Source: Acidobacteriota bacterium (lineage in GTDB: Bacteria; Acidobacteriota; Polarisedimenticolia; JAPUKU01). Taken from it: a DNA stretch of 56,242 nt. The notes beneath the pieces are model-generated. The model was not told the origin of the DNA, searched no databases, and saw only the letters and a program-made list of their open reading frames with translations. Made by a program: the position numbers and the translations under genes. The stretch is taken from positions 1-56,242 of the forward strand of contig JAPUKU010000056.1 in NCBI GenBank assembly GCA_027295505.1. Reading direction: 5' to 3'. Numbering within the stretch: position 1 is the stretch's first letter; every line of letters starts with the position of its first letter. Below, in pieces: positions 2,753 to 47,215 of the stretch.

Positions 2753-8230
<5,478 letters not shown>

Positions 8231-9828: not shown

Positions 9829-11301
9829 TCAGCGGCGGCTGCTGCGGACAGGCGTAGTGTTCATGGAAGCAAGGAAGTCGGCGTTCGTCTTGCTCTTGCG
9901 CATATTATCGAGGAGAAGCTCCATGCTCTCGGCCGGCGAGAGCTGATCCAGCACCTTTCGAAGCACCCAGATCCGCTGCAGATCCGAACTCTCGATCAGC
10001 AACTCCTCCTTGCGGGTGCCCGACCTGGCAATGTCAATGGCCGGGAAGACCCTTCGATCAGCAAGCTTTCGGTCCAGGTTGATCTCCATGTTGCCGGTTC
10101 CCTTGAACTCCTCGAAGATCACGTCGTCCATGCGACTGCCCGTGTCAATCAGGGCCGTGGCCATGATCGTCAAGCTGCCTCCGTCCTCAATGTTACGCGC
10201 CGCGCCGAAGAACCGTTTCGGCCGCTGGAGAGCATTGGCGTCCACACCGCCGGACAGCACCTTGCCGCTCGGCGGCACAATGGTGTTGTAGGCGCGCGCC
10301 AAGCGCGTGATGCTGTCGAGGAGAATTACCACATCGCGTTGGTGCTCCACCAACCGCTTGGCTTTCTCGATCACCATCTCGGCGACCTGTACGTGGCGGG
10401 TGGCGGGCTCGTCAAAGGTTGAAGAGATGACCTCCCCCTTGACGGAGCGTTCCATATCGGTGACTTCTTCCGGGCGTTCGTCGATGAGCAGCACAATGAG
10501 CGCCACTTCGGGGTGGTTGGCGCTGAGACTGTGGGCAATCGCCTGGAGCAACATGGTCTTTCCGGTCCGGGGTGGCGCCACGATGAGCCCGCGTTGCCCC
10601 TTACCGATCGGAGTCAGCAGATCCATGATGCGAGCCGACTGATTCTCGTTGGGGCCCTCCAGCTGGAGGCGTTCCTGCGGATAAAGGGGCGTGAGGTTGT
10701 CGAAGAACACACGCTTCTGCGAGCCCTCAGGTTCCTCGAGGTTCACCGCCTCCACTTTCAGGAGAGCAAAGTAGGACTCGCCCGACTTGGGCGAACGCAC
10801 CTGTCCGGAGACCGTATCGCCTGTGCGAAGGCTAAAGCGGCGTATCTGAGATGGGGAGACGTAGATATCGTCAGGGCTGGGCAGATAGTTGTACTCCGGT
10901 GCGCGCAGGAAGCCGTAGCCGTCTGGCAGCACCTCCAGCACGCCTTCCGAGAAGATGCGCCCCTCACGCTCGGCCTGGGCCTTGAGGACATGGAAGATCA
11001 GATCCTGGCGTCTCACACCGGCCGCTGAGCCGACGCCCAGGTCCTGTGCCACGGCGCTCAGGTCACTCAGGCTCATGTGCTTGAGTTCCTTGAGGTTCAG
11101 TGCACCGTTCTTGGCCTTCGTCGCCGCCTCACCGGGCTTCAGCACCGTCGCTACATCGGCAGAGGCTGCAGGAGTTGCAGGGGCAAGTGCAGGGGCGGAG
11201 GGTAGGCTCCTGTCGGGGGCGGACCGGCTCTGCTCTGCCGCACCCCGCGGGCGTCTCGGGCCCCGACGGTCTGTGTTGGGTCGATTGTCTTCGAACTGAA
11301 T
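9829..11301 (-). CDS. rho: Transcription termination factor Rho; probable ATT start at 11301 (ORF track start is GTG 11145)
   Basis: [50 protein letters not shown]; frame is open back to ATT 11301, 8 nt after AGGAGG. Gene identity is certain, the start is inferred. Confidence 0.93.
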
Positions 11302-11585
11302 GGTCTTATCCTCCTACGGGATTGGGTGGATCTGGGTAACCAGCCCACCCGATTTTGAAGGGTCTGATGTCAAGCAGCGAGAAATGTCATCTCGGTGACG
11401 AAATCACCTCAGTAGGTGCCAGGGAATATGCTTGAAAAAACGATTTTAAGGTTGGAATCGCTTAACGGCGCTCTCGGTGGGCGCGGCCCATACTCTCAAC
11501 ACCTGGTATTCAGGAGCTGAACTTCTCCAATGGCTCTGCTGGGACCGTGCTCGATAAACGCTAAATGAGGGAACCTTCAAAAAGC

Positions 11586-17109: not shown

Positions 17110-18432
17110 TCAGTAGGCCGCCAGGTAGCGTTCCACCTCCCAGGGGTGAATCTGGGCAATGTATTCGGCCCACTCTTGGCGCTTGGCCGTCAGGTAGTTC
17201 GTGTAGATGTGCTCTCCGAGCACAGCCTGGACAACGGCGTCCTTGCGCAAAGCAATGATGGCATCGTTCAGATCGGTGGGCAGGTTCTCTATCTTCAGAC
17301 GCCGGCGCTCCCGCTGGCTCATGTTGTAGATGTTCTTGTTGATTGGCTCACCAGGATCCCTGCGGTTGGCAATCCCATCCAGACCGGCTCCGAGCATCAC
17401 CGCGAGGGCCAGATAGGGATTGCAGGCGGGATCGGGCATACGAAGCTCGGCCCGGGTGCCTACGCCGCGCCGATCGGGCACACGTAGCAGCGGGGAGCGA
17501 TTGCGCTCCGACCAGGCAACGTTGGTCGGGGCCTCATAGCCGGGCACCAGGCGCTTGTAGGAGTTGATCAGCGGATTGGTGATCGCGCAGAACCCTCTCG
17601 CATGCGCGAGCACACCGCCGATGTACCACATGCATAGGTCACTCAGCTCGTACTTACTCTTGGGATCGTGGAACACGTTCGAGCCGCCCTTGAAGAGCGA
17701 CTGGTGCGTGTGCATCCCCGAGCCATTCTGGCCGTAGAGCGGTTTCGGCATGAAGGTGGCGTGAAGATCAAAATCGAGGGCCACCTTCCGGACAATGTGC
17801 CTGAAGGTGGCGATGTGGTCGGCCGTCATCACCGCCTCCGCGTACTTGAAGTCGATCTCGTGCTGACCCGGGGCGACCTCGTGATGCGCCGCCTCTACCT
17901 CGAAACCCATGAGCTCGAGCACCTCGACGATACGGCGTCGGCATTCCTCCCCCCGATCGATCGGGGTGAGATCGAAGTACCCTCCCGCGTCGTGCGTGCG
18001 GGTGGTCGGGTTGCCCTGCTCATCCTGATGGAAAAGAAAGAATTCGGCTTCGGTGCCGGCCATCATCGTGTACCCCAGTGCACCGGCCTGCTCGCAGACC
18101 CGCTTAAGCGCCAGGCGCGGACAGCCACCGAAAGGCCGGCCGTCGGGATGGTGGATATCGCAGATAAGTCGGGCGACCTTGCCGCTGGAGTTGGCCCAGG
18201 GGTACACGCGGAAGGTGCTGAGTTCCGGCGCCAGGACCATGTCCGATTCCTCGATCCGTACGAAGCCCTCGATCGATGAGCCATCAAACAGAACCTGGCC
18301 ATCGAGCGCCTTCTCGAACTGGTTGCGGGGCACCTCGACGTTCTTGACCCGCCCCAAGATGTCCGTGAACTGAAGCCGAAGGAACCGGACCTCTTCCTTC
18401 TCGACCTGTTTGAGGATTTCAGCTCGCTCCAT
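17110..18432 (-). CDS. glnA: Glutamine synthetase type I (GSI-alpha-like)
   Basis: FDGSSIEGF, HHEVAPGQHEI, ATFMPKP, NGSGMH, NSYKRLVPGYEAP; SD GGGAGGAG. Confidence 0.93.
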   Translation of the reverse strand: MERAEILKQVEKEEVRFLRLQFTDILGRVKNVEVPRNQFEKALDGQVLFDGSSIEGFVRIEESDMVLAPELSTFRVYPWANSSGKVARLICDIHHPDGRPFGGCPRLALKRVCEQAGALGYTMMAGTEAEFFLFHQDEQGNPTTRTHDAGGYFDLTPIDRGEECRRRIVEVLELMGFEVEAAHHEVAPGQHEIDFKYAEAVMTADHIATFRHIVRKVALDFDLHATFMPKPLYGQNGSGMHTHQSLFKGGSNVFHDPKSKYELSDLCMWYIGGVLAHARGFCAITNPLINSYKRLVPGYEAPTNVAWSERNRSPLLRVPDRRGVGTRAELRMPDPACNPYLALAVMLGAGLDGIANRRDPGEPINKNIYNMSQRERRRLKIENLPTDLNDAIIALRKDAVVQAVLGEHIYTNYLTAKRQEWAEYIAQIHPWEVERYLAAY

Positions 18433-18901: not shown

Positions 18902-18917
18902 TGGCACGCCTGTTGCT
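18902..18917 (+). promoter_or_regulatory. sigma54 (-24/-12) promoter upstream of the S8 peptidase
   Basis: TGGCAC-GCCTG-TTGCT, preceded by an AT-rich tract with an IHF-like site (18740-18752). Confidence 0.7.
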
Positions 18918-19009
18918 CTCTCACCATGCGGATGCCGCGCTAGCGGTTCCGCCAGCGGGAACCTGGAGATTGAACCCACTGGAGATTGCCAAGGAGGGCA
19001 ACACTTTAT

Positions 19010-20731
19010 ATGCGAGTAACCCGATGCATCGCTTCAATCCTCTGGACAATGGCCATCGGCGCCCTGGTCTGCGTTGCGGCGTCCACTTCAGCCCTGGCGG
19101 CCCGAACGGACCGCGCGCTCGAGAGGGCCGCGAACGGCCGGCCTCAGATGGTCGATGTCATTGTTCAGACACCCGACAGGCCGACCTTCGAAGATCGTAC
19201 TCTGGTGGGCGCCTTCGGAGGCGAGGCCGGACTGCCGTTTTCTAGCATCAACGGCTTCCCGGCCCGAGTACCTTCTCCAGCGCTGAAGGGCCTGGCTAAC
19301 AATCCGCGCTTCAGCAGCCTGTCGCTCGATGCACCGATGAAATCATTCTGGGACCGTAATGCCGTGCGCCCCCCCGTGGGCGCTCCGGAGGCCTTCGCGA
19401 CTTACGGCGCGACAGGGGCCGGCGTCGGTGTGGCGGTCGTGGACAGCGGCGTTGCGAACCACGAGGACTTCAGTAACGGCGTTAACTCTAGCATTCGTGG
19501 GTTTGTAGATTTTGTCGGTGACACGGACAAAAAACTCATTGACCCGTACGGCCACGGCACGCACGTGGCCGGGATCCTCGCAGGGCACGGAAGCGCGGTC
19601 GACCGTTTCTCCGGTATCGCCCCGGGATCCTCGCTCTACATTCTGCGCGTTCTGGACGGGAACGGCCGAGGCACCGTCAGCAACGTGCTGAGAGCGCTCG
19701 ACTGGATCCGCCATAACGCAGCGGCCCACAACATCCGCATCGTCAACCTGTCGCTGGGACACCCTGTCTTCGAGCCCTACAACAGCGACCCACTCTGCAA
19801 GGCGGTTGAGGACCTGGTCAGGAGAGGCATTGTCGTGGTGGCCGCCGCCGGCAACTACGGACTCTGCGACGGCGCCGAGTGTTACGGAGGTATTACGGTT
19901 CCGGGCAACTCCCCTTACGCGATCACGGTCGGCGCCATGAACCCCAGGGGCACAGCCTCACGCGTTGACGACGTCATGGCGCGGTTTTCCTCCCGCGGGC
20001 CGACGTTCGTCGATGGCATCGTAAAACCTGACATAGTGGCCAACGGAGTGTTCTCGGTGTCGATGACCTCACCTGGCTCTTACTTCGAGACCCGGTACGG
20101 TGAGCTCGAGGTGAGCTCGACCGAATACGACGCGTCGGTGGGCTCCGGAGACTACTTCCTTCTCAGCGGCACCTCGATGGCCGCGCCCGTGGTATCGGGT
20201 ATCGCCGCGATGATGCTGCAGAAGAACCCGTCCCTCACCCCGAACCTTGTGAAGGCAATTCTCATGTACACCGCGGAGGATCGCGGCTACGACATCATGA
20301 CCCAGGGCGCCGGGTATGTGAACGCGCCGGGTGCCGTCGAGGTTGCCGAGAGCATCACAACCAATCCGACCTCCGTTGGCGATGGAGAGTACTGGTTGAC
20401 CTCTCCGTTGAGCGGATCCAGCACCATCGACGGCCAGGGCGTACTGTGGACCGGGCGACTCCTGTTCACCACGTCGATCCTGACGAGCTCATCGCAGAAC
20501 CCCATCGTCGGCTACAACTTCGAAGAGCTATGGGGCCAGGGCGTGCTCTGGAACTACATGCAGACCGTCTACTCTTACGAGTTCGACGATCTCGACATCG
20601 AATCGAGCGCGGTCTACTGGACCGGTGGCGTCAGTTCCTTCTCGGTGCTGTGGACTTCGTGGCAAACCCAGAGCGCCAGCGATCTGATCTACAGTGAGGG
20701 ATATCGTTGGGACGGGAAAAAGAATCGATGA
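19010..20731 (+). CDS. Secreted S8 (subtilisin-like, AprX-type) serine peptidase
   Basis: VAVVDSG, HGTHVAG, AAAGN, GTSMAAP catalytic motifs; signal peptide; AAGGAGG upstream of ATG 19010. Confidence 0.92.
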   Translation: MRVTRCIASILWTMAIGALVCVAASTSALAARTDRALERAANGRPQMVDVIVQTPDRPTFEDRTLVGAFGGEAGLPFSSINGFPARVPSPALKGLANNPRFSSLSLDAPMKSFWDRNAVRPPVGAPEAFATYGATGAGVGVAVVDSGVANHEDFSNGVNSSIRGFVDFVGDTDKKLIDPYGHGTHVAGILAGHGSAVDRFSGIAPGSSLYILRVLDGNGRGTVSNVLRALDWIRHNAAAHNIRIVNLSLGHPVFEPYNSDPLCKAVEDLVRRGIVVVAAAGNYGLCDGAECYGGITVPGNSPYAITVGAMNPRGTASRVDDVMARFSSRGPTFVDGIVKPDIVANGVFSVSMTSPGSYFETRYGELEVSSTEYDASVGSGDYFLLSGTSMAAPVVSGIAAMMLQKNPSLTPNLVKAILMYTAEDRGYDIMTQGAGYVNAPGAVEVAESITTNPTSVGDGEYWLTSPLSGSSTIDGQGVLWTGRLLFTTSILTSSSQNPIVGYNFEELWGQGVLWNYMQTVYSYEFDDLDIESSAVYWTGGVSSFSVLWTSWQTQSASDLIYSEGYRWDGKKNR

Positions 20732-27578: not shown

Positions 27579-28154
27579 TTAGTCGTCGCCGACAAGCAGG
27601 GACGTTACATCCCTGCGGATCTGCTCTGCATCGAGCGGTCCGGCAATGCAGCGGTTGGCACCGTGCCGTATGAATTCGTCAGCCAGCGCGGCGTTTGGCT
27701 CAGAGGTCACCGCGATGATCTTCGTGTGCCGCGTATCGGGCCTGGCACGTATCCGCCTGCAGGCATCCGCCCCTTCGCCCCCCGGCATGAGAACGTCCAG
27801 GATGATCAGATCCGGCGCAAACTCCGCCACCTTGACCCCGGCTTCGAAACTGCTGGAGGCCGTTTCCACGTCACAAGGGGGGTCCATCTGGCGCAGGCCC
27901 TGGGCGAGTGCATCAACCACGGCTGGCTCGTCGTCGACGATCAGGATGCGATTGCGTCTCGGAGCGGTACGCAAGCGCCTGCCGCTCTGCTGGGCCGAGA
28001 TGAAGGCCTCCAGATCCTCCCGGCTGATCCGACGGTGCCCACCCACCGTTCGGTATGCCTTCAGGTAGCCCGCGTCAATCCAGTTGCTCACTGTCTTGGG
28101 AGCGACGTTCAGATAACGGCTGGCCTCAAAGGTGGTGAGGACGTCCTTTTTCAC
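27579..28154 (-). CDS. Response regulator with N-terminal excisionase-type (HTH_17) DNA-binding domain
   Basis: LTTFEASRYL..TVSNWID..RTVGGHRRI; ILIVDDE...IILDVLMP; GGAGG SD before GTG 28154. Confidence 0.85.
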   Translation of the reverse strand: MKKDVLTTFEASRYLNVAPKTVSNWIDAGYLKAYRTVGGHRRISREDLEAFISAQQSGRRLRTAPRRNRILIVDDEPAVVDALAQGLRQMDPPCDVETASSSFEAGVKVAEFAPDLIILDVLMPGGEGADACRRIRARPDTRHTKIIAVTSEPNAALADEFIRHGANRCIAGPLDAEQIRRDVTSLLVGDD

Positions 28155-28202
28155 CCTTCCTCCACTAAATTCTCTAGTAGTTCGATTATGTAGGTTTTTT
28201 CG

Positions 28203-28231
28203 ACTGTATACAGTTCGAATGATCGTGTCAA
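28203..28231 (-). promoter_or_regulatory. sigma70-type promoter overlapping the palindrome ACTGTATACAGT
   Basis: TTGACA-N17-TACAGT; perfect 12-bp palindrome at 28203-28214. Confidence 0.55.
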
Positions 28232-28284
28232 GCTTGGGGCTATCCGATTGCCCCCTCTTCCAGCGCTCTGGTATTATCGCGCAC

Positions 28285-29133
28285 ATGGCGATTGCGGCCG
28301 CGGACAATTGGAAGGCCTGGAAGAAGAATGCCGGCCTCGTGGGCCGGGAGAAGGAGAGCCGGTTAGCGCTGGCGGTCCTGCAAGCTCAGCGCCATCTCCT
28401 TCTTGAAGGCCCTGTTGGCGTGGGGAAGACGTTTCTGGCCCACTGCCTGGCCCGCTACCTTGGCCGCAGTCTGTACCGCGTGGACGGCGACGAGCGATAT
28501 AGCGAGCAAAAGCTTACTGGCTGGTTCGACCCTCCGATGACCCTCAAAGTCGGCTACGTCCAGGATGCCTTCCGCCAGGGCCCTCTGGTTGCCGCCATGA
28601 AGGAAGGGGGCATCCTCTTCATCAACGAGCTTAATCGGATGCCGGAGTCGGTCCAGAATGTGCTCCTGCCAGCACTTGACGAGCGCCTGATCGATATTCC
28701 CCACCTCGGCCAGCTCCGGGCACAGGGGCCGTTCCAGGTGATCGCGACTCAGAATCCCCATGAGTTCGTAGCCACCAGTCACCTCAGTGAGGCCCTCAAG
28801 GACCGCTTCGAATGGGTGGCGCTCGATTATCAATCCCGCGAAGAGGAGATCCGCATCGTTCAGGGCCAGACCGGCGTGGCGGACGAGAGACTCATTTGCG
28901 GCGCCGTGGACCTGGCCCGCGCCACACGAACCGACGCGCGCGTGCGACGCGGGGCGAGCGTGCGCGCCGCCATCAGCATCGTGGACATCGCTTCCGCCCT
29001 GGGCGGGGTCGATCACCTGGAGGAGGCGGCCCGGGTGGCCCTACCGACACGCATCCAACTTCGCGAGGAACACCAGGACTCGACCGGTGATCTGATCCAG
29101 GAGCTGGCGGGCAGCGAAAAAAAAAACGGCTGA
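28285..29133 (+). CDS. MoxR-family AAA+ ATPase
   Basis: LLLEGPVGVGKT, FINELNR, ATQNP, ALKDRF. Confidence 0.88.
   Translation: MAIAAADNWKAWKKNAGLVGREKESRLALAVLQAQRHLLLEGPVGVGKTFLAHCLARYLGRSLYRVDGDERYSEQKLTGWFDPPMTLKVGYVQDAFRQGPLVAAMKEGGILFINELNRMPESVQNVLLPALDERLIDIPHLGQLRAQGPFQVIATQNPHEFVATSHLSEALKDRFEWVALDYQSREEEIRIVQGQTGVADERLICGAVDLARATRTDARVRRGASVRAAISIVDIASALGGVDHLEEAARVALPTRIQLREEHQDSTGDLIQELAGSEKKNG
29117..29126 (+). other. A10 homopolymer, candidate slippage/frameshift site joining the AAA+ and vWA frames
   Basis: GAAAAAAAAAAC just before the AAA stop; the +1 frame is open from 29096 to 30055. Confidence 0.6.
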
Positions 29134-29209
29134 GCACTCTGCCCAGGACCACCGATCCCCGCCTTCCACGCAGACCCACCCTCCGCTGACGCTCAATGAG
29201 ATCGAGGAG

Positions 29210-30055
29210 GTGACAGCCGGCACCGGTCTGGCTGCAGGAGGCGGCTCCTCCAGCTCCCAGACGGAATCGGTCGCCTGGCGGGTAGCCTGCCGTTACCACC
29301 AGATCCGCCGCCAGGTACCAAACCACAGACGCCGAAAGCTGTTACGGCAGCTGGCGGTACGGGGTGTGCTGGAGAAAGCTCGCGCCATCCTGGGTGCAGC
29401 CAAACGCCGTGCCCGCCTCGTGTCGCAGACTTATCGCGAGGGGGATGCCGGGGAACTCGACCTCGAGGCCACCCTGGAACGCTGGGGCGGCCGGGGCTGG
29501 CCACGGCCGGAGGATCTTGTGGTACGCCGCCGGGAGGAGAAGCGTCTCGACTGCGCCCTCATGGTCGACACCAGCCTGTCGATGGAGGGCAAGAACATTG
29601 CTCTGGCCAGCACCGCCGCCGCGGTGCTGGCCATGCGCCTCAATCCACTGGACGTTTCCGTGATCCTGTTCGAGAACCGTGCCTCGGTTGCGAAGCCTCT
29701 CGGTATGCGCCTGTCTCTGGAGCAGATCGTCGCCCGGATTCTGGACGTGCCGGCCACCGGCTACACGAACATCCACGATGCGCTGCGCTGTGGAGCCCAG
29801 CAGCTCTCCCGCTCCCAGCGCCGCCAGCAGTGCGGCATCCTGATCACGGACGGCAAGTACACGGTCGGGGGGCCTCCCTTGCCTCTCGCGAGCCGCTTCA
29901 GCCACCTGCACGTCCTCATGACCGAGGATTACAGCAACGACCCCCAGCTCTGCCGCAGCATGGCCCTGGCCGGCCATGGTCAGATGCTACCCGTCCGGCG
30001 GTATGAGGATCTCCCGCGTCGCATTGAGCGCCTGCTGGTCGAGATAATGCGCTGA
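29210..30055 (+). CDS. von Willebrand factor A (vWA) domain protein, possibly the C-terminal half of a frameshift fusion
   Basis: LDLEATL, MIDAS DTSLSM, GYTNI, ILITDG. Confidence 0.82.
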   Translation: MTAGTGLAAGGGSSSSQTESVAWRVACRYHQIRRQVPNHRRRKLLRQLAVRGVLEKARAILGAAKRRARLVSQTYREGDAGELDLEATLERWGGRGWPRPEDLVVRRREEKRLDCALMVDTSLSMEGKNIALASTAAAVLAMRLNPLDVSVILFENRASVAKPLGMRLSLEQIVARILDVPATGYTNIHDALRCGAQQLSRSQRRQQCGILITDGKYTVGGPPLPLASRFSHLHVLMTEDYSNDPQLCRSMALAGHGQMLPVRRYEDLPRRIERLLVEIMR

Positions 30056-30128
30056 AGGAGAGGAGGCGTTGGGCCTGATGGCCCAACGCCTTTTGCTTAG
30101 GAGGAGGTATGAGAAGACGTACCTGTCT
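30054..30128 (-). ncRNA. Candidate sigma54-dependent sRNA with anti-SD seed (CCUCCUCC)
   Basis: Lies between a consensus sigma54 promoter and a terminator; short 5' hairpin, unpaired AUACCUCCUCCUAAG, no downstream minus-strand gene. Confidence 0.55.
30064..30094. terminator. Strong, probably bidirectional intrinsic terminator
   Basis: AGGCGTTGGGCC-tgat-GGCCCAACGCCT 12-bp stem; T-run on the plus strand, pyrimidine tail on the minus strand. Confidence 0.75.
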
Positions 30129-30137
30129 TCTCTCTAG

Positions 30138-30153
30138 AGCAAGGTGTGTGCCA
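30138..30153 (-). promoter_or_regulatory. sigma54 (-24/-12) promoter
   Basis: TGGCAC-ACACC-TTGCT on the minus strand; IHF-like TTTCAA-TAAG-TTA at 30181-30193. Confidence 0.7.
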
Positions 30154-30215
30154 ATCCGCTACTATGGTTAACCCAATTATTTTCAATAAGTTATCCAATT
30201 CACGTGGTGTGTGTC

Positions 30216-30234
30216 TGTGACACTCTGTGTCACA
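30216..30234. promoter_or_regulatory. Inverted repeat, candidate enhancer (bEBP) binding site
   Basis: TGTGACAC-tct-GTGTCACA, about 90-105 bp upstream of the predicted sigma54 transcription start. Confidence 0.5.
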
Positions 30235-30260
30235 ACCATGCAAAACATGTCATTATTTTG

Positions 30261-32204
30261 TCAGGAGACCGGCTCGGGCTCCAGCACAGGCTTGACGTCC
30301 GGCTGCAGTACCGCTGAGAGCGTGTCGAGGAGTTTTTCGATCTCGAACGGCTTCGAGAGGACGGGTTGTTTGGTGGTCTCGAGGAACTGGCGCGTCTCCT
30401 CGTCGACGGTGTCGCCCGTGGAGAACACCACGCGCTCGGCGAGATAGGGAAAGTCACGGCACACTGTGTCGTAAAGGGCCCGCCCGTTCATGTGGGGCAT
30501 CTTGAGGTCGAGCAGCAGCGCGTCGTACTTGCCGTTGCGGAGCTTGCCCAGCGCCTCCAAGCCGTTTCCGGCCGTATCAGCACGAAAGCTGCTCTCGGTA
30601 AGAAGATCGACCATGAGGTCCAGAATGACCGGCTCATCATCTACCACCAGGATGCGCGGCATCTTGCGGCGGCTCCCGGATTCGGTCTCGCCCGATGCGG
30701 AGGACTCCGCGGCGACCATGGGCAAATCAATGGTGACGACCACTCCGCCATCGCGTCCGTTCTCAATGCGCAGCTCGCCCGCATGGTCACTCACCACGCT
30801 GTAGGAGATGCTCAAGCCGAGCCCCATGCCTTTGCCGACCTCACGCCTCGTGAAGAACGGTTCCATCACCTTGTCGATGATGTCGGCTGGGATCCCCCCC
30901 CCTGTATCCTCAAAAGTAACGAGAATGCGCCCATCCCGGCCCGAGGTCCGGACCGTGAGGGTCTTGTCCGAGCTCTCCAGCATGGCGTGGTGTGCGTTGT
31001 TGATGATGTTCATGAAAACCTGCCGCATCTGATCGTAATCCACCATGGTGAGCGGCAACTTCGGGTCCAGCTCGGTGACGACCTTGATGTCGTCTAGATT
31101 GAGCTGAAACGACATGACATTGAGGACTTTGGTGAGGATGCCGTTCAGACCCAGGTAGCGCTTGACCGGTTTGTGCTGGCGACCGAAGATAATCAGGTTC
31201 TGGATGATCTTCTGGCAGCGGCAGGCCTGGGAGTAGATGCGCTCCAGCTGACGCTTGAGCTTTGTTTCCGGGCTGCGCCCCAGCAAGAGCTGTGAATAAC
31301 CGATCACTCCAGTAAGGGGGTTGTTGAGCTCGTGAGCCACTCCGGCCACCAGCCGCCCCAGCGAAGAGAGCTTTTCGTTCTGCACGAGCTGCATCTGGAG
31401 ACGCTGGTGCTCCTTCTCAGCCTCACACCGGTCTGTACGGTCCTCGACCAGGAACACTAGCCCGCCCCCCTGGTCCGGGCGCCGCAGGCTGCTGGCCCGG
31501 ATCTCGAGAATACGGCCCCCTTCCCGCACCTCCAGTGAATGCTTGGCGTTGGCGTCTGCCCGTAGCTCCAGGACCAGTCTGGAAATCTGTTCCTCTGATT
31601 CGGGGAAGCATTCGGTGATCGAACGGTTCAGAAGTTCCCAGGTGTGGCGGCCCAGAGCCTTGGCAAAAGCCTCGTTGCAGTAGACCACAAAGTCATTGGC
31701 GTTGATCTCAACCGCTCCTTCGGAGAGCGACTCCAGGATCGAGTTCCGATCGCTCAGCTCCTCAAGCAGTTCCTTGACGACCTCACGGCGGTGCATGTCT
31801 CGAAATCCCGACAGGTAAAGCTCAGGCTCGTCGCGCTGGATCCACTCGATGCTCTCGTCTACCCCCTTGAGTATCTTCTCGGCCTGCATCTTGGCCACAA
31901 AGGCGCGCGCCCCCAACCTGCGCAGGTTTCCGATCTCCTCGAGCAGGATTCCGGAGACAATGACGATGGCGATGGAGCGCAGTTTTTCGTGGCTTTGCAG
32001 GTAACTACAGACCTGCATGCCATCGATGGCCGGCATAATCAGATCCAGGATGATCAGATCGGGACGATCTTCCTCCACCTCGCGGAGTGCCTGCTCACCG
32101 CTGCAGGCCTCCTTGACATCGAACCCCTTGTCGCGCAGGTGATCGCCCATGAGGCGAGTGTAGAAATGGTTGTTGTCGACGACAAGTATTTTTGATACAT
32201 CCAT
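30261..32204 (-). CDS. Hybrid sensor histidine kinase (REC-PAS-HisKA-HATPase-REC)
   Basis: Two receiver domains, VAHELNNPL H-box, QVFMNIINNA, DTGGG, GMGLGL. Confidence 0.92.
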   Translation of the reverse strand: MDVSKILVVDNNHFYTRLMGDHLRDKGFDVKEACSGEQALREVEEDRPDLIILDLIMPAIDGMQVCSYLQSHEKLRSIAIVIVSGILLEEIGNLRRLGARAFVAKMQAEKILKGVDESIEWIQRDEPELYLSGFRDMHRREVVKELLEELSDRNSILESLSEGAVEINANDFVVYCNEAFAKALGRHTWELLNRSITECFPESEEQISRLVLELRADANAKHSLEVREGGRILEIRASSLRRPDQGGGLVFLVEDRTDRCEAEKEHQRLQMQLVQNEKLSSLGRLVAGVAHELNNPLTGVIGYSQLLLGRSPETKLKRQLERIYSQACRCQKIIQNLIIFGRQHKPVKRYLGLNGILTKVLNVMSFQLNLDDIKVVTELDPKLPLTMVDYDQMRQVFMNIINNAHHAMLESSDKTLTVRTSGRDGRILVTFEDTGGGIPADIIDKVMEPFFTRREVGKGMGLGLSISYSVVSDHAGELRIENGRDGGVVVTIDLPMVAAESSASGETESGSRRKMPRILVVDDEPVILDLMVDLLTESSFRADTAGNGLEALGKLRNGKYDALLLDLKMPHMNGRALYDTVCRDFPYLAERVVFSTGDTVDEETRQFLETTKQPVLSKPFEIEKLLDTLSAVLQPDVKPVLEPEPVS

Positions 32205-32314
32205 GGGACAGTTACCCCCACGGACCAACATAGCCTGTGCTCTACCCAAGTCAAATTAGGAATTGGGCATTGACGCCGACCCTCCGGCACCGTAACATTT
32301 TTGACACCCACGCC

Positions 32315-33319
32315 ATGATCAGGATTCATTCAACGCATGCCCGGATTTCAAGCCTGCCCGGCAACCTGTTGCTCCGCTCCCTGGCAGGCATGGCGCTCTG
32401 TGCACTCTCAGTGCATTCAGCTCCGGCCGCTGAGTCTCAGACCGCACCGGCTGCCGGCACCCGGAGCGAGATGCTCGAGGAGCTCACACCGGAAGCTCGC
32501 AAGCGGGCCGCGGCAGTCCTCGAGGCCAGCCCCTGCCTGTGCGGGTGCCGTCTCGACTTGGCGGTCTGTGCTCTGGAGCACCCCGACTGTAGCCGCAGTT
32601 CGAGCATTGGCAAGAACATGGCGCGGCTGGCTGCGGAGGGCGCATCGGAAGAGGATCTCAAGGCATATGTCCGCACACAGCCGATCCTGCCGCGCCCCCG
32701 CCTACCTTCCACGAACCGGCAGGTCGGTCAGTCTGCTTCCTCTGTTCTCGAGGCGACCGAGCACACGTTTACAATCGACAGCTCCGCCTTCACCGGCCCG
32801 GTGAACGCGCCCGTGACGATCATCGAGTTCTCAGACTTCCAGTGCGGGTTCTGCGCCAAGAGCCAGCAACTGCTGAAGACAGTACTGGCCCGCTACCCTG
32901 AGCAGGTCCGCCTGGTCTACAAGCACTTCCCTCTTCCTTCACATGAGCAGGCCCGCGGCGCCGCCATGGCGGCCATGGCAGCTCAGGCGCAGGACCAGTT
33001 CTGGGCCATGCACGACCTGTTGTTCGCCAATCGAACGCAGCTGGATCAGGCGGCGTTCCTTCGCTTCGCCTCCCAGCTGCAGCTCGATATGGATCGATTC
33101 GAGCAGGACTTACAGAACCCGGCTTTCATGGCGCGGGTCAACGAGGATATTGTGGAGGGGCGCTCGGCCCGGCTGCCGGGCACGCCCAGCTTCTACGTCA
33201 ACGGCCGCAAGCTGCAAAGTAATTCAATGGTGGGATTCCAGCAAGCGATTGCGGAAGCACTGCGCGATGTCGAGGTCGGTAAAGCCCTGCACGGCTGGTG
33301 CCCCGTGCCTTCACGGTGA
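32315..33319 (+). CDS. DsbA-family thioredoxin-fold protein with Cys-rich N-terminal domain
   Basis: EFSDFQCGFC, YKHFPL, FWAMHD, GTPSFYVNG; N-terminal CLCGC..C..C; promoter TTGACG-N17-TAACAT at 32270-32298. Confidence 0.82.
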   Translation: MIRIHSTHARISSLPGNLLLRSLAGMALCALSVHSAPAAESQTAPAAGTRSEMLEELTPEARKRAAAVLEASPCLCGCRLDLAVCALEHPDCSRSSSIGKNMARLAAEGASEEDLKAYVRTQPILPRPRLPSTNRQVGQSASSVLEATEHTFTIDSSAFTGPVNAPVTIIEFSDFQCGFCAKSQQLLKTVLARYPEQVRLVYKHFPLPSHEQARGAAMAAMAAQAQDQFWAMHDLLFANRTQLDQAAFLRFASQLQLDMDRFEQDLQNPAFMARVNEDIVEGRSARLPGTPSFYVNGRKLQSNSMVGFQQAIAEALRDVEVGKALHGWCPVPSR

Positions 33320-46171: not shown

Positions 46172-47215
46172 ATGACGCTCTCCAGGCACCTGCATGGGGT
46201 CGATGCCAGTCGGTCAGACAGGCTCTCCCGCTGGGCTCCACTCCTGCTTTCCAGCCACCCGTTCCCGAAGCACGAGGCCCTCGCCGCGGCCCCGTTCGAC
46301 CGTGCCCGTCTGCCGTCCAGGCCATGGTTCTCGCCTGCATCGGTGCCGGGACAGAGCGAGACGGTAACCCTGGAAGACCTGCTGGCGGGCATGGCCGGAT
46401 CTCGGGAAGCCGCGGCCCCAATCCTCGAGAAGATCGCCTCCTCTCCCGGGGGAGAATGGATCGATTTCCTTGCCGCTTCCCAACTACGTCCGGCTTCGAG
46501 CCCCGTGTCGATCGGCGCCTTTCATGTCCTGGTGCCGTTGCCGGGAGAGCAACAAGCTCTGTTCGTATGGTACGGCCAGCGCCTGCCGCAGCTCGAGAAC
46601 CGCTGCGCCCTCATGCAGGAAGAGCTGGAGCGTGCACGCCGCGCCCTGGCGCAGCTCGAGTCGGGACTGCGCCGGGAACGTGCCCGGGTAGAGACACTGC
46701 TGGAGGCCTGCACAGAGCCCGCCTCGATCCAGGACCCCGCCTACCGCATCGTCGCCCAGAATGGCCCCCACCGTCGGATCTTCGGCGACCGGAGGGGCGA
46801 TCTCTGTCATGAAGTGTACCGGAGGCGGGAGCTGCCCTGTGAGGGGTGCCCCATGGCGGAGGCGCTAGAAACCCGGCAGCCCGCGTGTCTGGAGGATCAG
46901 CCCGGGGAGGGCCCGCTCTCAGGTCTGGAAGTGAGGATCCGGGCCCTGCCACTGTTCGCGCCCGATCACTCCCCTGGCGGCATCGTCGAAGTTTTCGCGT
47001 CCTCTGAAACCCGGATCGCGCTTCCGGATACGGACGCCCACGCCCCAGCACAGAGCCTCCGCGACTACCAGATGCAGCACATCCAGGAAGTCCTCGCGCG
47101 CTGCGGGGGAAACCGTGCCGAGGCGGCTCGGCAGCTTGGAATCAGCCGCGCCACTCTCTGGCGCAGGCTCGGCACCCACCCCACGCGTCCCCCCGAGGCC
47201 TCCCGTAGCGCCTAG
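46172..47215 (+). CDS. PAS domain + Fis-type HTH protein lacking an AAA+ domain
   Basis: Coiled coil, PAS with CHEVY..PCEGCP, GGNRAEAARQLGISRATLWRRL; promoter TTGACA-N18-TATACT at 46132-46161. Confidence 0.72.
   Translation: MTLSRHLHGVDASRSDRLSRWAPLLLSSHPFPKHEALAAAPFDRARLPSRPWFSPASVPGQSETVTLEDLLAGMAGSREAAAPILEKIASSPGGEWIDFLAASQLRPASSPVSIGAFHVLVPLPGEQQALFVWYGQRLPQLENRCALMQEELERARRALAQLESGLRRERARVETLLEACTEPASIQDPAYRIVAQNGPHRRIFGDRRGDLCHEVYRRRELPCEGCPMAEALETRQPACLEDQPGEGPLSGLEVRIRALPLFAPDHSPGGIVEVFASSETRIALPDTDAHAPAQSLRDYQMQHIQEVLARCGGNRAEAARQLGISRATLWRRLGTHPTRPPEASRSA

What the first reader, a model, noticed from the sequence alone, without database searches (positions are those of the whole stretch)
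30054..30234. Complete sigma54-dependent sRNA cassette with an anti-SD seed
Seen on the minus strand, in order: palindrome TGTGACAC-N3-GTGTCACA (30216-30234), IHF-like site (30181-30193), consensus TGGCAC-N5-TTGCT (30138-30153), then about 75 nt made of a small hairpin, an unpaired UCAUACCUCCUCCUAAG and a 12-bp GC stem with a pyrimidine tail. No gene follows on that strand. The seed is complementary to SD + AUG (UAGGAGGAGGUAUGA). Within this window it could pair with the rho RBS (UAGGAGGA) and the glnA RBS (GGAGGAG). Known: sigma54-driven sRNAs (Qrr, CrcZ, Pxr) and CCUCC-seed sRNAs exist. Inference: an unannotated trans-acting riboregulator, perhaps controlled via the adjacent hybrid kinase.
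Basis: partly seen in the sequence, partly recalled or inferred. Interest (0 to 1): 0.75.

Follow-up and report, generated by a model that had tools for sequence, protein, structure and literature searches.

The report
Conserved sigma-54-driven small RNA gene
Just after a sensor-kinase gene, this uncultured sediment bacterium carries what looks like a gene for a 70-base regulatory RNA switched on by the alternative sigma factor sigma-54: a well-supported new example of a known kind of regulator, whose expression and targets are still untested.

Summary
Related DNA shows they form a real unit.

- **Conservation.** In a metagenome contig (L011) the neighbouring kinase is 63% identical in protein and the upstream spacer about 40% identical in DNA. 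Yet a 70-nt block (window 30127→30058, minus strand) differs at only 3 positions.
- **Boundaries.** The block starts exactly where a TGGCAC-N5-TTGCT promoter would start transcription. It ends 6 nt after a 12-bp GC hairpin.
- **Promoter.** The two promoter boxes are invariant in 3 of 3 sequences, while the bases between them vary.
- **Not a neighbour's terminator.** The convergent downstream gene differs between the two loci.
- **Host factors.** The genome has rpoN, 12 enhancer-binding proteins and hfq.
- **No known family.** No Rfam family matches.
- **Narrow spread.** It was not found in the other 117 genomes of the class, in 400 genomes of the phylum, or in one genome for each of 185,579 species (exact 22-mer).

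No predicted target rises above shuffled controls. The rho and glnA pairings are ordinary Shine-Dalgarno complementarity.

Verdict: a probable sigma-54-dependent small RNA, a new member of a known kind.

The parts
30058..30127 (-). Predicted small RNA, 70 nt: 5' GACAGG... through the terminator hairpin and the UCCUCUC tail
   Evidence: Differs from L011 5112-5180 at 3 positions (2 substitutions, 1 one-base gap), all in unpaired linker or loop positions. Its first 19 nt are identical in G001, where the contig then ends. Its 40-nt bin (30121-30082) scores 0.95, the highest bin of a 2.6-kb alignment; the best kinase coding bins reach 0.875. Single copy in the genome.
30100..30107 (-).
   Evidence: Invariant in the window and L011. 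Nt 24-36 are unpaired in the minimum-energy fold; nt 21-23 sit in a weak 5' hairpin.
30064..30091 (-). 12-bp GC-rich hairpin, the presumed terminator; also usable on the plus strand
   Evidence: Folds. The stem is identical in L011 and the loop changes from AUCA to ACCA. On the plus strand it is followed by TTTTGCTT; on the minus strand by TCCTCTCCT.
30138..30153 (-). Sigma-54 -24/-12 element TGGCAC-N5-TTGCT
   Evidence: Perfect match. The boxes are invariant while the spacer varies (ACACC, ACGCC, GCCCA) across the window, G001 and L011. The C of the -12 GC is 12 nt before G30127. rpoN is present.
30161..30200 (.). AT-rich spacer holding the IHF-like site 30181-30193
   Evidence: Read. The spacer is AT-rich in all three sequences, but the IHF-like match itself is not conserved. 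Five HU/IHF-family genes are in the genome.
30216..30234 (.). Palindrome TGTGACAC-N3-GTGTCACA, a candidate activator binding site centred about 98 bp upstream of the predicted start
   Evidence: 0.10 expected with up to 3 mismatches. The 17-nt core is identical in G001 while both flanks vary. Only the GTGTCAC half is kept in L011, at a similar distance. It is the only one of 66 promoter-like sites in the genome with both half-sites upstream.
30261..32249 (-). Hybrid histidine kinase (REC-PAS-HisKA-HATPase-REC), the conserved upstream neighbour
   Evidence: Pfam. The same architecture stands upstream of the block in L011 (63% identity) and in G001.

Best explanation
The region is a gene for a small RNA of about 70 nt on the minus strand.

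Proposed pathway:
1. Sigma-54 RNA polymerase binds TGGCAC-N5-TTGCT at 30153-30138.
2. An enhancer-binding protein, not identified, probably binds the palindrome about 98 bp upstream of the start. It contacts the polymerase across the AT-rich spacer and opens the promoter.
3. Transcription starts at or next to G30127.
4. It stops at the 12-bp GC hairpin, a few bases beyond 30064.
5. The RNA has a long invariant 5' single strand holding CCUCCUCC. It most likely pairs with purine-rich ribosome-binding regions of a set of mRNAs and blocks translation initiation. Flanking bases would give specificity, and Hfq may assist.

Because the gene always follows the same cytoplasmic hybrid kinase, that kinase may feed the phosphorelay that activates the unknown enhancer-binding protein.

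Shown: the sequence elements, their conservation pattern, and the presence of rpoN, enhancer-binding proteins and hfq.
Inferred: transcription, both RNA ends, the pairing mechanism, the targets and the link to the kinase.
For: 1. Conservation has the shape of a transcript. Against L011, whose kinase is 63% identical in protein, the block 30127-30058 has 3 differences in 70 nt. The DNA just upstream and downstream is about 30-55% identical. The 5' boundary falls at the same base in G001.
2. That boundary is the predicted +1 of a perfect -24/-12 element. Its boxes are invariant and its spacer variable in 3 of 3 sequences.
3. The 3' boundary lies 6 nt after the hairpin. All 3 differences fall in linker or loop positions.
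4. The convergent downstream gene is a VWA-domain gene in the window and an FGGY sugar-kinase gene in L011. The block therefore belongs to the kinase side and is not simply a neighbour's terminator.
5. On the upstream side, the DsbA-like gene and the kinase keep their order.
6. The machinery is present: rpoN, 12 full enhancer-binding proteins, hfq and HU/IHF-family genes.
7. Other promoters in this genome share the extended -12 box TTGCTCTAG.
8. No sigma-70-like promoter was found in 29000-31000, and no reading frame lies in the transcript.
9. Precedent: pxr lies directly downstream of a sigma-54 response-regulator gene and has its own sigma-54 promoter (PMC5568312, passages read). glmY and glmZ use sigma-54 promoters with upstream activator sites, and IHF sites at E. 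coli glmY (PMC3045617, abstract read).
Against: - No expression evidence of any kind.
- On the minus strand the hairpin has no U tract (4 U in 9), so termination there is assumed. The plus-strand orientation is the better terminator.
- The palindrome is kept in the same-genus genome but only as a half-site in L011. The activator site is therefore uncertain.
- There are no compensatory changes, because the sequences are too alike.
- Only two full copies and one partial copy are known.
- Target prediction gives nothing above background. The best 18-bp helix lies in the 5' leader of a dnaK-like gene, but 9 of 67 shuffled RNAs reach that length somewhere in the genome. Its duplex energy is reached by 1 of 25 controls that keep CCUCCUCC.
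- Total invariance of a terminator stem is unusual for a small RNA and is unexplained.
Confidence: 0.6

Rival explanations
1. The block is the conserved 3' untranslated region of the kinase mRNA: a cis-acting stability or termination element, or a small RNA cut from that mRNA. On this reading it is not an independently promoted gene.
For: No terminator-like hairpin with a U tail separates the kinase stop (30261) from the block. The block follows the same kinase in 3 of 3 loci. Small RNAs that share a terminator with the upstream gene are well known (recalled).
Against: It does not explain why TGGCAC and TTGCT are invariant while their spacer and surroundings vary. Nor does it explain why conservation starts exactly 12 nt after the -12 GC. 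The 134 nt between the stop codon and the block are poorly conserved. The two readings can also coexist.
Confidence: 0.12
2. It is a sigma-54-dependent RNA that does not act by pairing with ribosome-binding sites. It might instead bind or sequester a protein, or act as an antisense partner of the convergent mRNA's 3' end through the shared hairpin.
For: Every base is invariant, including the stem, which suggests recognition of the whole molecule. No target stands out above controls. The transcripts of the convergent genes would overlap at the hairpin.
Against: There are no repeated GGA or other known protein-titration motifs in the sequence (by reading). The convergent gene differs between the loci, so a gene-specific antisense role is unlikely. 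A long invariant single strand with CCUCCUCC is typical of a pairing seed.
Confidence: 0.15
3. The functional strand is the plus strand: a strong Shine-Dalgarno sequence plus ATG at 30109 opens a small reading frame, and the 'seed' is only its complement.
For: AGGAGGAGG-T-ATG is followed by a 20-codon frame in the window. The first 6 codons (MRRRTC) are conserved.
Against: The frame is 20 codons in the window and 7 in L011, and after codon 6 it differs from the window in G001. It has no promoter of its own, sits directly after a terminator, and has no downstream gene, only the antisense of the kinase. The spacing between GGAGG and ATG is 1 nt. Conservation stops at the minus-strand +1, not at a codon boundary of any frame.
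Confidence: 0.03
4. The block is not under selection as an RNA. It was spread recently between lineages (lateral transfer or gene conversion), and the promoter match is fortuitous.
For: About 96% identity sits inside DNA that is otherwise about 40-70% identical. Synteny breaks exactly at its 3' end.
Against: It is a single copy. It keeps the same position and orientation after the orthologous kinase in three lineages. The promoter boxes just outside the block are conserved although the DNA between them has diverged. It was not found anywhere else in the collections searched.
Confidence: 0.05

Closest known systems
Pxr small RNA of Myxococcus and related myxobacteria
   Same: The small RNA gene lies in the intergenic region directly downstream of a two-component signalling gene. 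It has its own sigma-54 promoter. Synteny is kept on the regulator side while the other neighbours vary (PMC5568312, passages read).
   Different: The upstream gene of pxr is the sigma-54 activator itself (nla19); here it is a hybrid kinase without an activator domain. Pxr is about 108 nt with three stem-loops; this RNA is about 70 nt with one strong hairpin. There is no sequence or Rfam match.
Qrr small RNAs of Vibrio (LuxO and sigma-54 dependent)
   Same: Short RNAs driven by sigma-54, with a long absolutely conserved single-stranded region. They are fed by a phosphorelay that includes hybrid kinases (recalled). That a qrr gene is activated through sigma-54 by enhancer-binding proteins was seen in a search listing (PMC10162802, title and start of abstract).
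   Different: No sequence or Rfam match. Qrr RNAs have several stem-loops and a U-rich terminator tail, and they come in 1-5 copies; here there is one copy and no U tail. The activator is unknown.
GlmY/GlmZ of Enterobacteriaceae
   Same: Both use sigma-54 promoters with upstream activator (GlrR) sites, plus IHF sites at E. coli glmY. The activator belongs to a two-component system, GlrK/GlrR (PMC3045617, abstract read). That glmY lies next to those genes is recalled.
   Different: GlmY and GlmZ are about 150-200 nt and act through RapZ and glmS activation (listing abstracts). Three activator sites there compare with one palindrome here. The IHF-like site here is not conserved. No Rfam match.
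Rfam narK RNA motif (RF03032)
   Same: It is the best Rfam match. The model begins with a sigma-54-like GGCAC...TTGCT segment followed by a small hairpin.
   Different: It scores 19.3 bits against a gathering score of 43.2, with E = 0.19. The match rests on the promoter part, and no narK gene follows. This RNA is not a member.
Small RNAs with C-rich or CU-rich seeds that mask Shine-Dalgarno sequences (for example RsaE/RoxS; recalled)
   Same: An exposed C/U-rich stretch is complementary to GGAGG-type ribosome-binding sites.
   Different: Those RNAs are not sigma-54 dependent and carry their C-rich motifs in hairpin loops, in several copies. Here one linear stretch has 33 invariant bases. Nothing was tested beyond complementarity.

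Membership tests
Sigma-54-dependent promoter | -24 GG and -12 GC elements matching TGGCAC-N5-TTGCW with exact spacing | tested here: met
   Perfect match at 30153-30138. The boxes are invariant in 3 of 3 sequences while the spacer varies.
Sigma-54-dependent promoter | The host encodes sigma-54 and enhancer-binding proteins | tested here: met
   rpoN on C150 at 212 bits. Twelve proteins carry a full Sigma54_activat domain at 209-246 bits.
Sigma-54-dependent promoter | Upstream activator site about 80-150 bp from the start, conserved with the promoter | tested here: inconclusive
   The palindrome is centred about 98 bp upstream. It is identical in G001, but only one half-site survives in L011. 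No other promoter-like site in the genome carries it.
Sigma-54-dependent promoter | Transcription start 11-13 nt after the -12 GC, dependent on rpoN | not testable with these tools
   No RNA run was available. The conservation boundary at G30127 fits the expected position.
Trans-acting base-pairing small RNA | An independent short transcript without a reading frame | tested here: inconclusive
   No start codon lies between +1 and the hairpin. Whether it is transcribed is unknown.
Trans-acting base-pairing small RNA | Intrinsic terminator: GC hairpin followed by a U tract | tested here: not met
   The hairpin is present, but the tail UCCUCUCCU has 4 U in 9. The conserved tail ends 6 nt after the stem.
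Trans-acting base-pairing small RNA | A conserved, accessible seed | tested here: met
   Nt 1-32 are invariant in the window and L011. Nt 24-36 are unpaired in the minimum-energy and centroid folds.
Trans-acting base-pairing small RNA | Targets whose complementarity exceeds chance and is conserved | tested here: inconclusive
   The best sites are the dnaK-like leader and the rpsP ribosome site. They are not above shuffled controls. In G001 the rpsP gene and the matching dnaK-like leader were not found.
Any Rfam 15 family (including Qrr, Pxr, GlmY and the Acidobacteria motifs, as far as Rfam holds them) | Score at or above the family's gathering threshold | tested here: not met
   0 matches in the whole window. 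The best sub-threshold hits are narK at 19.3 bits and RAGATH-36 at 13.7 bits.

The most novel reading that the evidence does not exclude
A dedicated signalling arm (hybrid kinase, then one enhancer-binding protein, then a single sigma-54 promoter) exists only to make one RNA. That RNA mimics the ribosome's anti-Shine-Dalgarno sequence. In response to the kinase's signal it throttles translation of strong-SD mRNAs such as rpsP (ribosomal protein S16 operon) and a grpE-dnaK-like chaperone operon. The invariance of every base, stem included, would reflect recognition of the whole RNA by a partner protein.
Probability: 0.1. Interest if true: 0.7.

Novelty: new member of a known kind. Interest (0 to 1): 0.45.

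Why it matters
Regulatory RNAs are almost unknown in uncultured sediment lineages. Earlier notes of this scan label this genome's relatives Acidobacteriota; I did not check that. No paper on a sigma-54-dependent small RNA in Acidobacteria came up in my three literature searches.

This candidate has unusually clean boundaries and a promoter of known type. It is therefore directly testable: one promoter, 12 candidate activators and one 70-nt RNA. If it is real, it adds a lineage-restricted case to the recurring design in which a two-component signal is passed through sigma-54 to a small RNA (Qrr, Pxr, GlmY). It also gives a handle on what the adjacent orphan hybrid kinase controls.

Tried and rejected
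- **RNA evidence.** No RNA holder is listed among the 23 public runs returned for window 28000-33000.
- **Strain variation.** DNA contigs of 4 runs were laid. Variants appear at 30057 and 30166 and none inside 30058-30153. With only 9 variants in 1301 bases this says little.
- **Distant homologues.**
  - BLAST of the 91-nt region against 119 class genomes gave only G000 and G001 as real hits. I looked at 2 of the other 16 hits that lay in other genomes, the two that matched the 5' part; both are chance matches in coding DNA.
  - The exact 22-mer gave 0 hits in genome contigs.
  - A promoter-plus-seed gapped pattern gave 2 hits: a flagellar-gene leader and archaeal coding DNA, both unrelated.
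  - A 23-mer with up to 3 mismatches in 401 phylum genomes gave G000 plus one 3-mismatch hit. The backwards control pattern hit 4 genomes.
  - The covariance model R1 gave hits at E <= 0.01 in 7 of 119 class genomes, G000 included. I looked at 4 of the 7 hits in the other six genomes, including both full-length ones. All are ordinary terminators after coding regions, with no promoter and no seed.
  - The unpublished genome G013 was among the genomes. It contributes only to 'no match' tallies and to one S16 match, and its locus was not read.
- **Paralogues.** None in the genome.
- **Targets.**
  - The full sliding duplex scan timed out.
  - The seed-based scan ranks a grpE-dnaK-like intergenic site first (18 bp with 2 G-U pairs). 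The rpsP ribosome site (10 + 8 bp) is also notable.
  - Controls reach these values.
  - In G001 the orthologous regions were not found.
  - The extended rpsP site is absent from the 21 other class genomes read (G013's locus was left out). This fits co-evolution but does not prove it.
  - Among 11 activator genes and rpoN that my crude gene calls recovered, one activator (C202) ranks 22 of 2401. That is not significant after 12 tests. Two activators and the kinase were not recovered.
- **Regulon.** A search for a regulon sharing the palindrome found no other promoter-like site with both half-sites.
- **16S rRNA.** Its 3' end was not found in the assembly.
- **Earlier notes of the scan.** Nothing on this sequence.
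- **Terminator scan.** The simple scan did not list the 30064-30091 hairpin on either strand, so I relied on folds and direct reading.
- **Inverted-repeat finder.** It did not list the 8-N3-8 palindrome. Searches do.

Full report
**What is in the sequence**

On the minus strand, a 662-aa hybrid histidine kinase (REC-PAS-HisKA-HATPase-REC) ends at 30261. Reading onward on that strand:

| Feature | Coordinates |
|---|---|
| Palindrome TGTGACAC-AGA-GTGTCACA | 30234-30216 |
| AT-rich spacer | about 30200-30161 |
| TGGCAC-ACACC-TTGCT | 30153-30138 |
| GACAGGUACGUCUUCUCAUACCUCCUCCUAAGCAAAA, starting 12 nt after the -12 C | from 30127 |
| 12-bp GC hairpin | 30091-30064 |
| Tail UCCUCUCCUUC | from 30063 |

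The stop codon of a convergent plus-strand VWA-domain gene (29210-30055, preceded by a MoxR-type AAA gene) lies just beyond. No start codon lies between the predicted start and the hairpin.

How the elements compare with chance:
- The palindrome is expected 0.10 times in the window even with 3 mismatches allowed.
- The promoter consensus alone is not rare. The genome has 9 perfect matches, and the reversed control pattern has 5.
- The 70-nt RNA folds far better than shuffles: -29.8 kcal/mol, z = -6.8, 0 of 200 shuffles as good.

**Relatives decide the matter**

One same-genus genome (G001) holds the region, but its contig ends 19 nt into the transcript. A metagenome contig (L011), found through the kinase protein (63% identity), holds all of it. 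In the three-way alignment:
- TGGCAC and TTGCT are invariant, while the 5 bases between them read ACACC, ACGCC and GCCCA.
- The bases between the -12 box and the predicted start vary.
- From GACAGG onward the sequences are identical in all three, as far as G001 reaches.
- The window and L011 differ at 3 positions in 70: two in the linker before the hairpin and one in its loop.
- Identity collapses 6 nt after the stem.

In 40-nt bins along a 2.6-kb alignment, the bin inside the block scores 0.95. The best kinase coding bins reach 0.875, and the intergenic DNA upstream scores 0.33-0.55. The conserved block therefore has the outline of a transcript whose 5' end is the +1 of the sigma-54 element.

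**The block is not a by-product of the neighbour's terminator**

- The convergent gene is a VWA-domain gene in the window and an FGGY-family sugar kinase gene in L011. The two proteins show no similarity.
- Upstream, the order DsbA-like gene, then kinase, is kept (45% and 63% identity).
- The kinase precedes the block in G001 too.
- The plus-strand reading (Shine-Dalgarno plus ATG at 30109) gives a 20-codon frame in the window and 7 codons in L011. It has no promoter and no downstream gene, so I reject it.

**The machinery exists**

- rpoN is present, along with 12 full enhancer-binding proteins, hfq and five HU/IHF-family genes.
- None of the activators lies in the window.
- A second perfect sigma-54 element in the window precedes a subtilase gene.
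- Several promoter-like sites elsewhere share the extended box TTGCTCTAG with this one.
- No sigma-70-like promoter was found nearby.

1. The 8-bp 'small hairpin' has its left arm upstream of the predicted start, and that arm is not conserved. The fold of the 70-nt RNA instead has a weak 5-bp hairpin that covers the first three bases of CCUCCUCC.
2. The IHF-like site is not conserved. Only the AT-richness of the spacer is.
3. The palindrome is identical in G001, but only GTGTCAC survives in L011, at a similar distance from the promoter. It is the only one of 66 promoter-like sites in the genome with both half-sites upstream. This would fit an activator with a single target, but it proves nothing.
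4. There is no U tract after the hairpin on this strand. On the plus strand there is one.
5. The proposed rho and glnA pairings are 7-8 nt of generic Shine-Dalgarno complementarity. 410 of 2401 crudely called genes carry GGAGG upstream.

**Targets**

- A seed-based scan of the genome put an 18-bp helix (2 G-U pairs) first. It lies in the leader of a dnaK-like gene downstream of grpE.
- The scan also found a 10 + 8 bp match covering the ribosome site of rpsP up to its AUG.
- Neither survives the controls. 9 of 67 shuffled RNAs reach 18 bp somewhere in the genome. 1 of 25 RNAs with a shuffled 5' half and an intact CCUCCUCC reaches the best duplex energy over 2402 initiation regions.
- The extended rpsP site is absent from the 21 other class genomes read.
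- In G001, the one other genome with the RNA, rpsP and the dnaK-like leader were not found.
- Targets remain open.

**Distribution and identity**

- No Rfam family reaches its threshold in the window. The best sub-threshold hit, narK, rests on the promoter-like part of that model.
- The RNA is a single copy in the genome.
- It was not found in the other 117 genomes of the class by BLAST or by a covariance model.
- It was not found in 400 genomes sampled from the phylum.
- It was not found as an exact 22-mer in one genome for each of 185,579 species.
- It is thus a lineage-restricted family, known from three sequences.
- Run labels place the organism in marine sediments.
- Earlier notes of this scan call its relatives Acidobacteriota; I did not check that.

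**Mechanism and comparison**

The most likely reading is a sigma-54-dependent, activator-controlled small RNA of about 70 nt. Its invariant C/U-rich 5' strand would pair with ribosome-binding regions. In architecture it is closest to three systems:
- **pxr**: a small RNA gene directly downstream of a two-component gene, with its own sigma-54 promoter, and synteny kept only on that side (PMC5568312, passages read).
- **glmY/glmZ**: sigma-54 promoters with upstream activator sites, and IHF sites at E. coli glmY (PMC3045617, abstract read).
- **qrr**: known to me from recall and from a search listing.

It is a member of none of these by sequence or structure.

The complete invariance of the hairpin stem is unusual and unexplained. 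It may reflect double duty as a bidirectional terminator, recognition of the whole RNA by a partner, or recent spread of the block.

**Verdict**

It is a new member of a known kind, of moderate interest, and readily testable.

Noticed in passing
window 11299-11316 (minus), upstream of rho 9829-11145: The rho reading frame stays open for 52 codons upstream of its first GTG. A GGAGGA Shine-Dalgarno site at 11314-11309 is followed 7 nt later by an in-frame ATT. Rho may start at AUU and carry an N-terminal extension.
   Followed up: partly
window 18902-18917 (+): A second perfect sigma-54 element, with an AT-rich upstream region, precedes a subtilase (Peptidase_S8) gene at 18986-20731. It is divergent from glnA at 17110-18432.
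   Followed up: partly
G000 contigs C143:2678, C130:58479, C202:15877: Sigma-54 promoter-like sites share the extended -12 box TTGCTCTAG with the small-RNA promoter. The C130 site has no reading frame before the contig end and could be another non-coding unit, or a gene cut off by the contig end.
   Followed up: no
G000 C254 about 20548-20620 (minus), grpE-dnaK-like intergenic region: The leader of a dnaK-like gene holds GGGAGGUGUGAGAAGACG. It is 18-bp complementary to the small RNA and closely resembles the plus strand of the small-RNA locus. It is not above shuffled controls.
   Followed up: yes
G000 C236 10439-10460 (minus), rpsP ribosome site: The S16 gene has an unusually long double Shine-Dalgarno leader, GGGGAGGAGGUAAGGAGAAGAC-AUG. 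It is not seen in the 21 other class genomes read.
   Followed up: partly
window 46172-47215 (+): A 347-aa protein has only a C-terminal Fis-type HTH_8 domain, the DNA-binding module typical of sigma-54 activators. No AAA+ domain is detected.
   Followed up: no
window 2753-8230 (-): An 1825-aa reading frame has UvrA-type domains and several ABC ATPase stretches, about twice the usual UvrA length.
   Followed up: no
L111 1501-1570 (unrelated MAG contig): A sigma-54 promoter is followed by a leader in which GGAGGAG can pair with CCUCCUCC, just before a gene whose first residues, read by eye, look like a flagellar rod protein (recalled resemblance, no search run). It may be a cis-acting anti-SD-like hairpin.
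   Followed up: no
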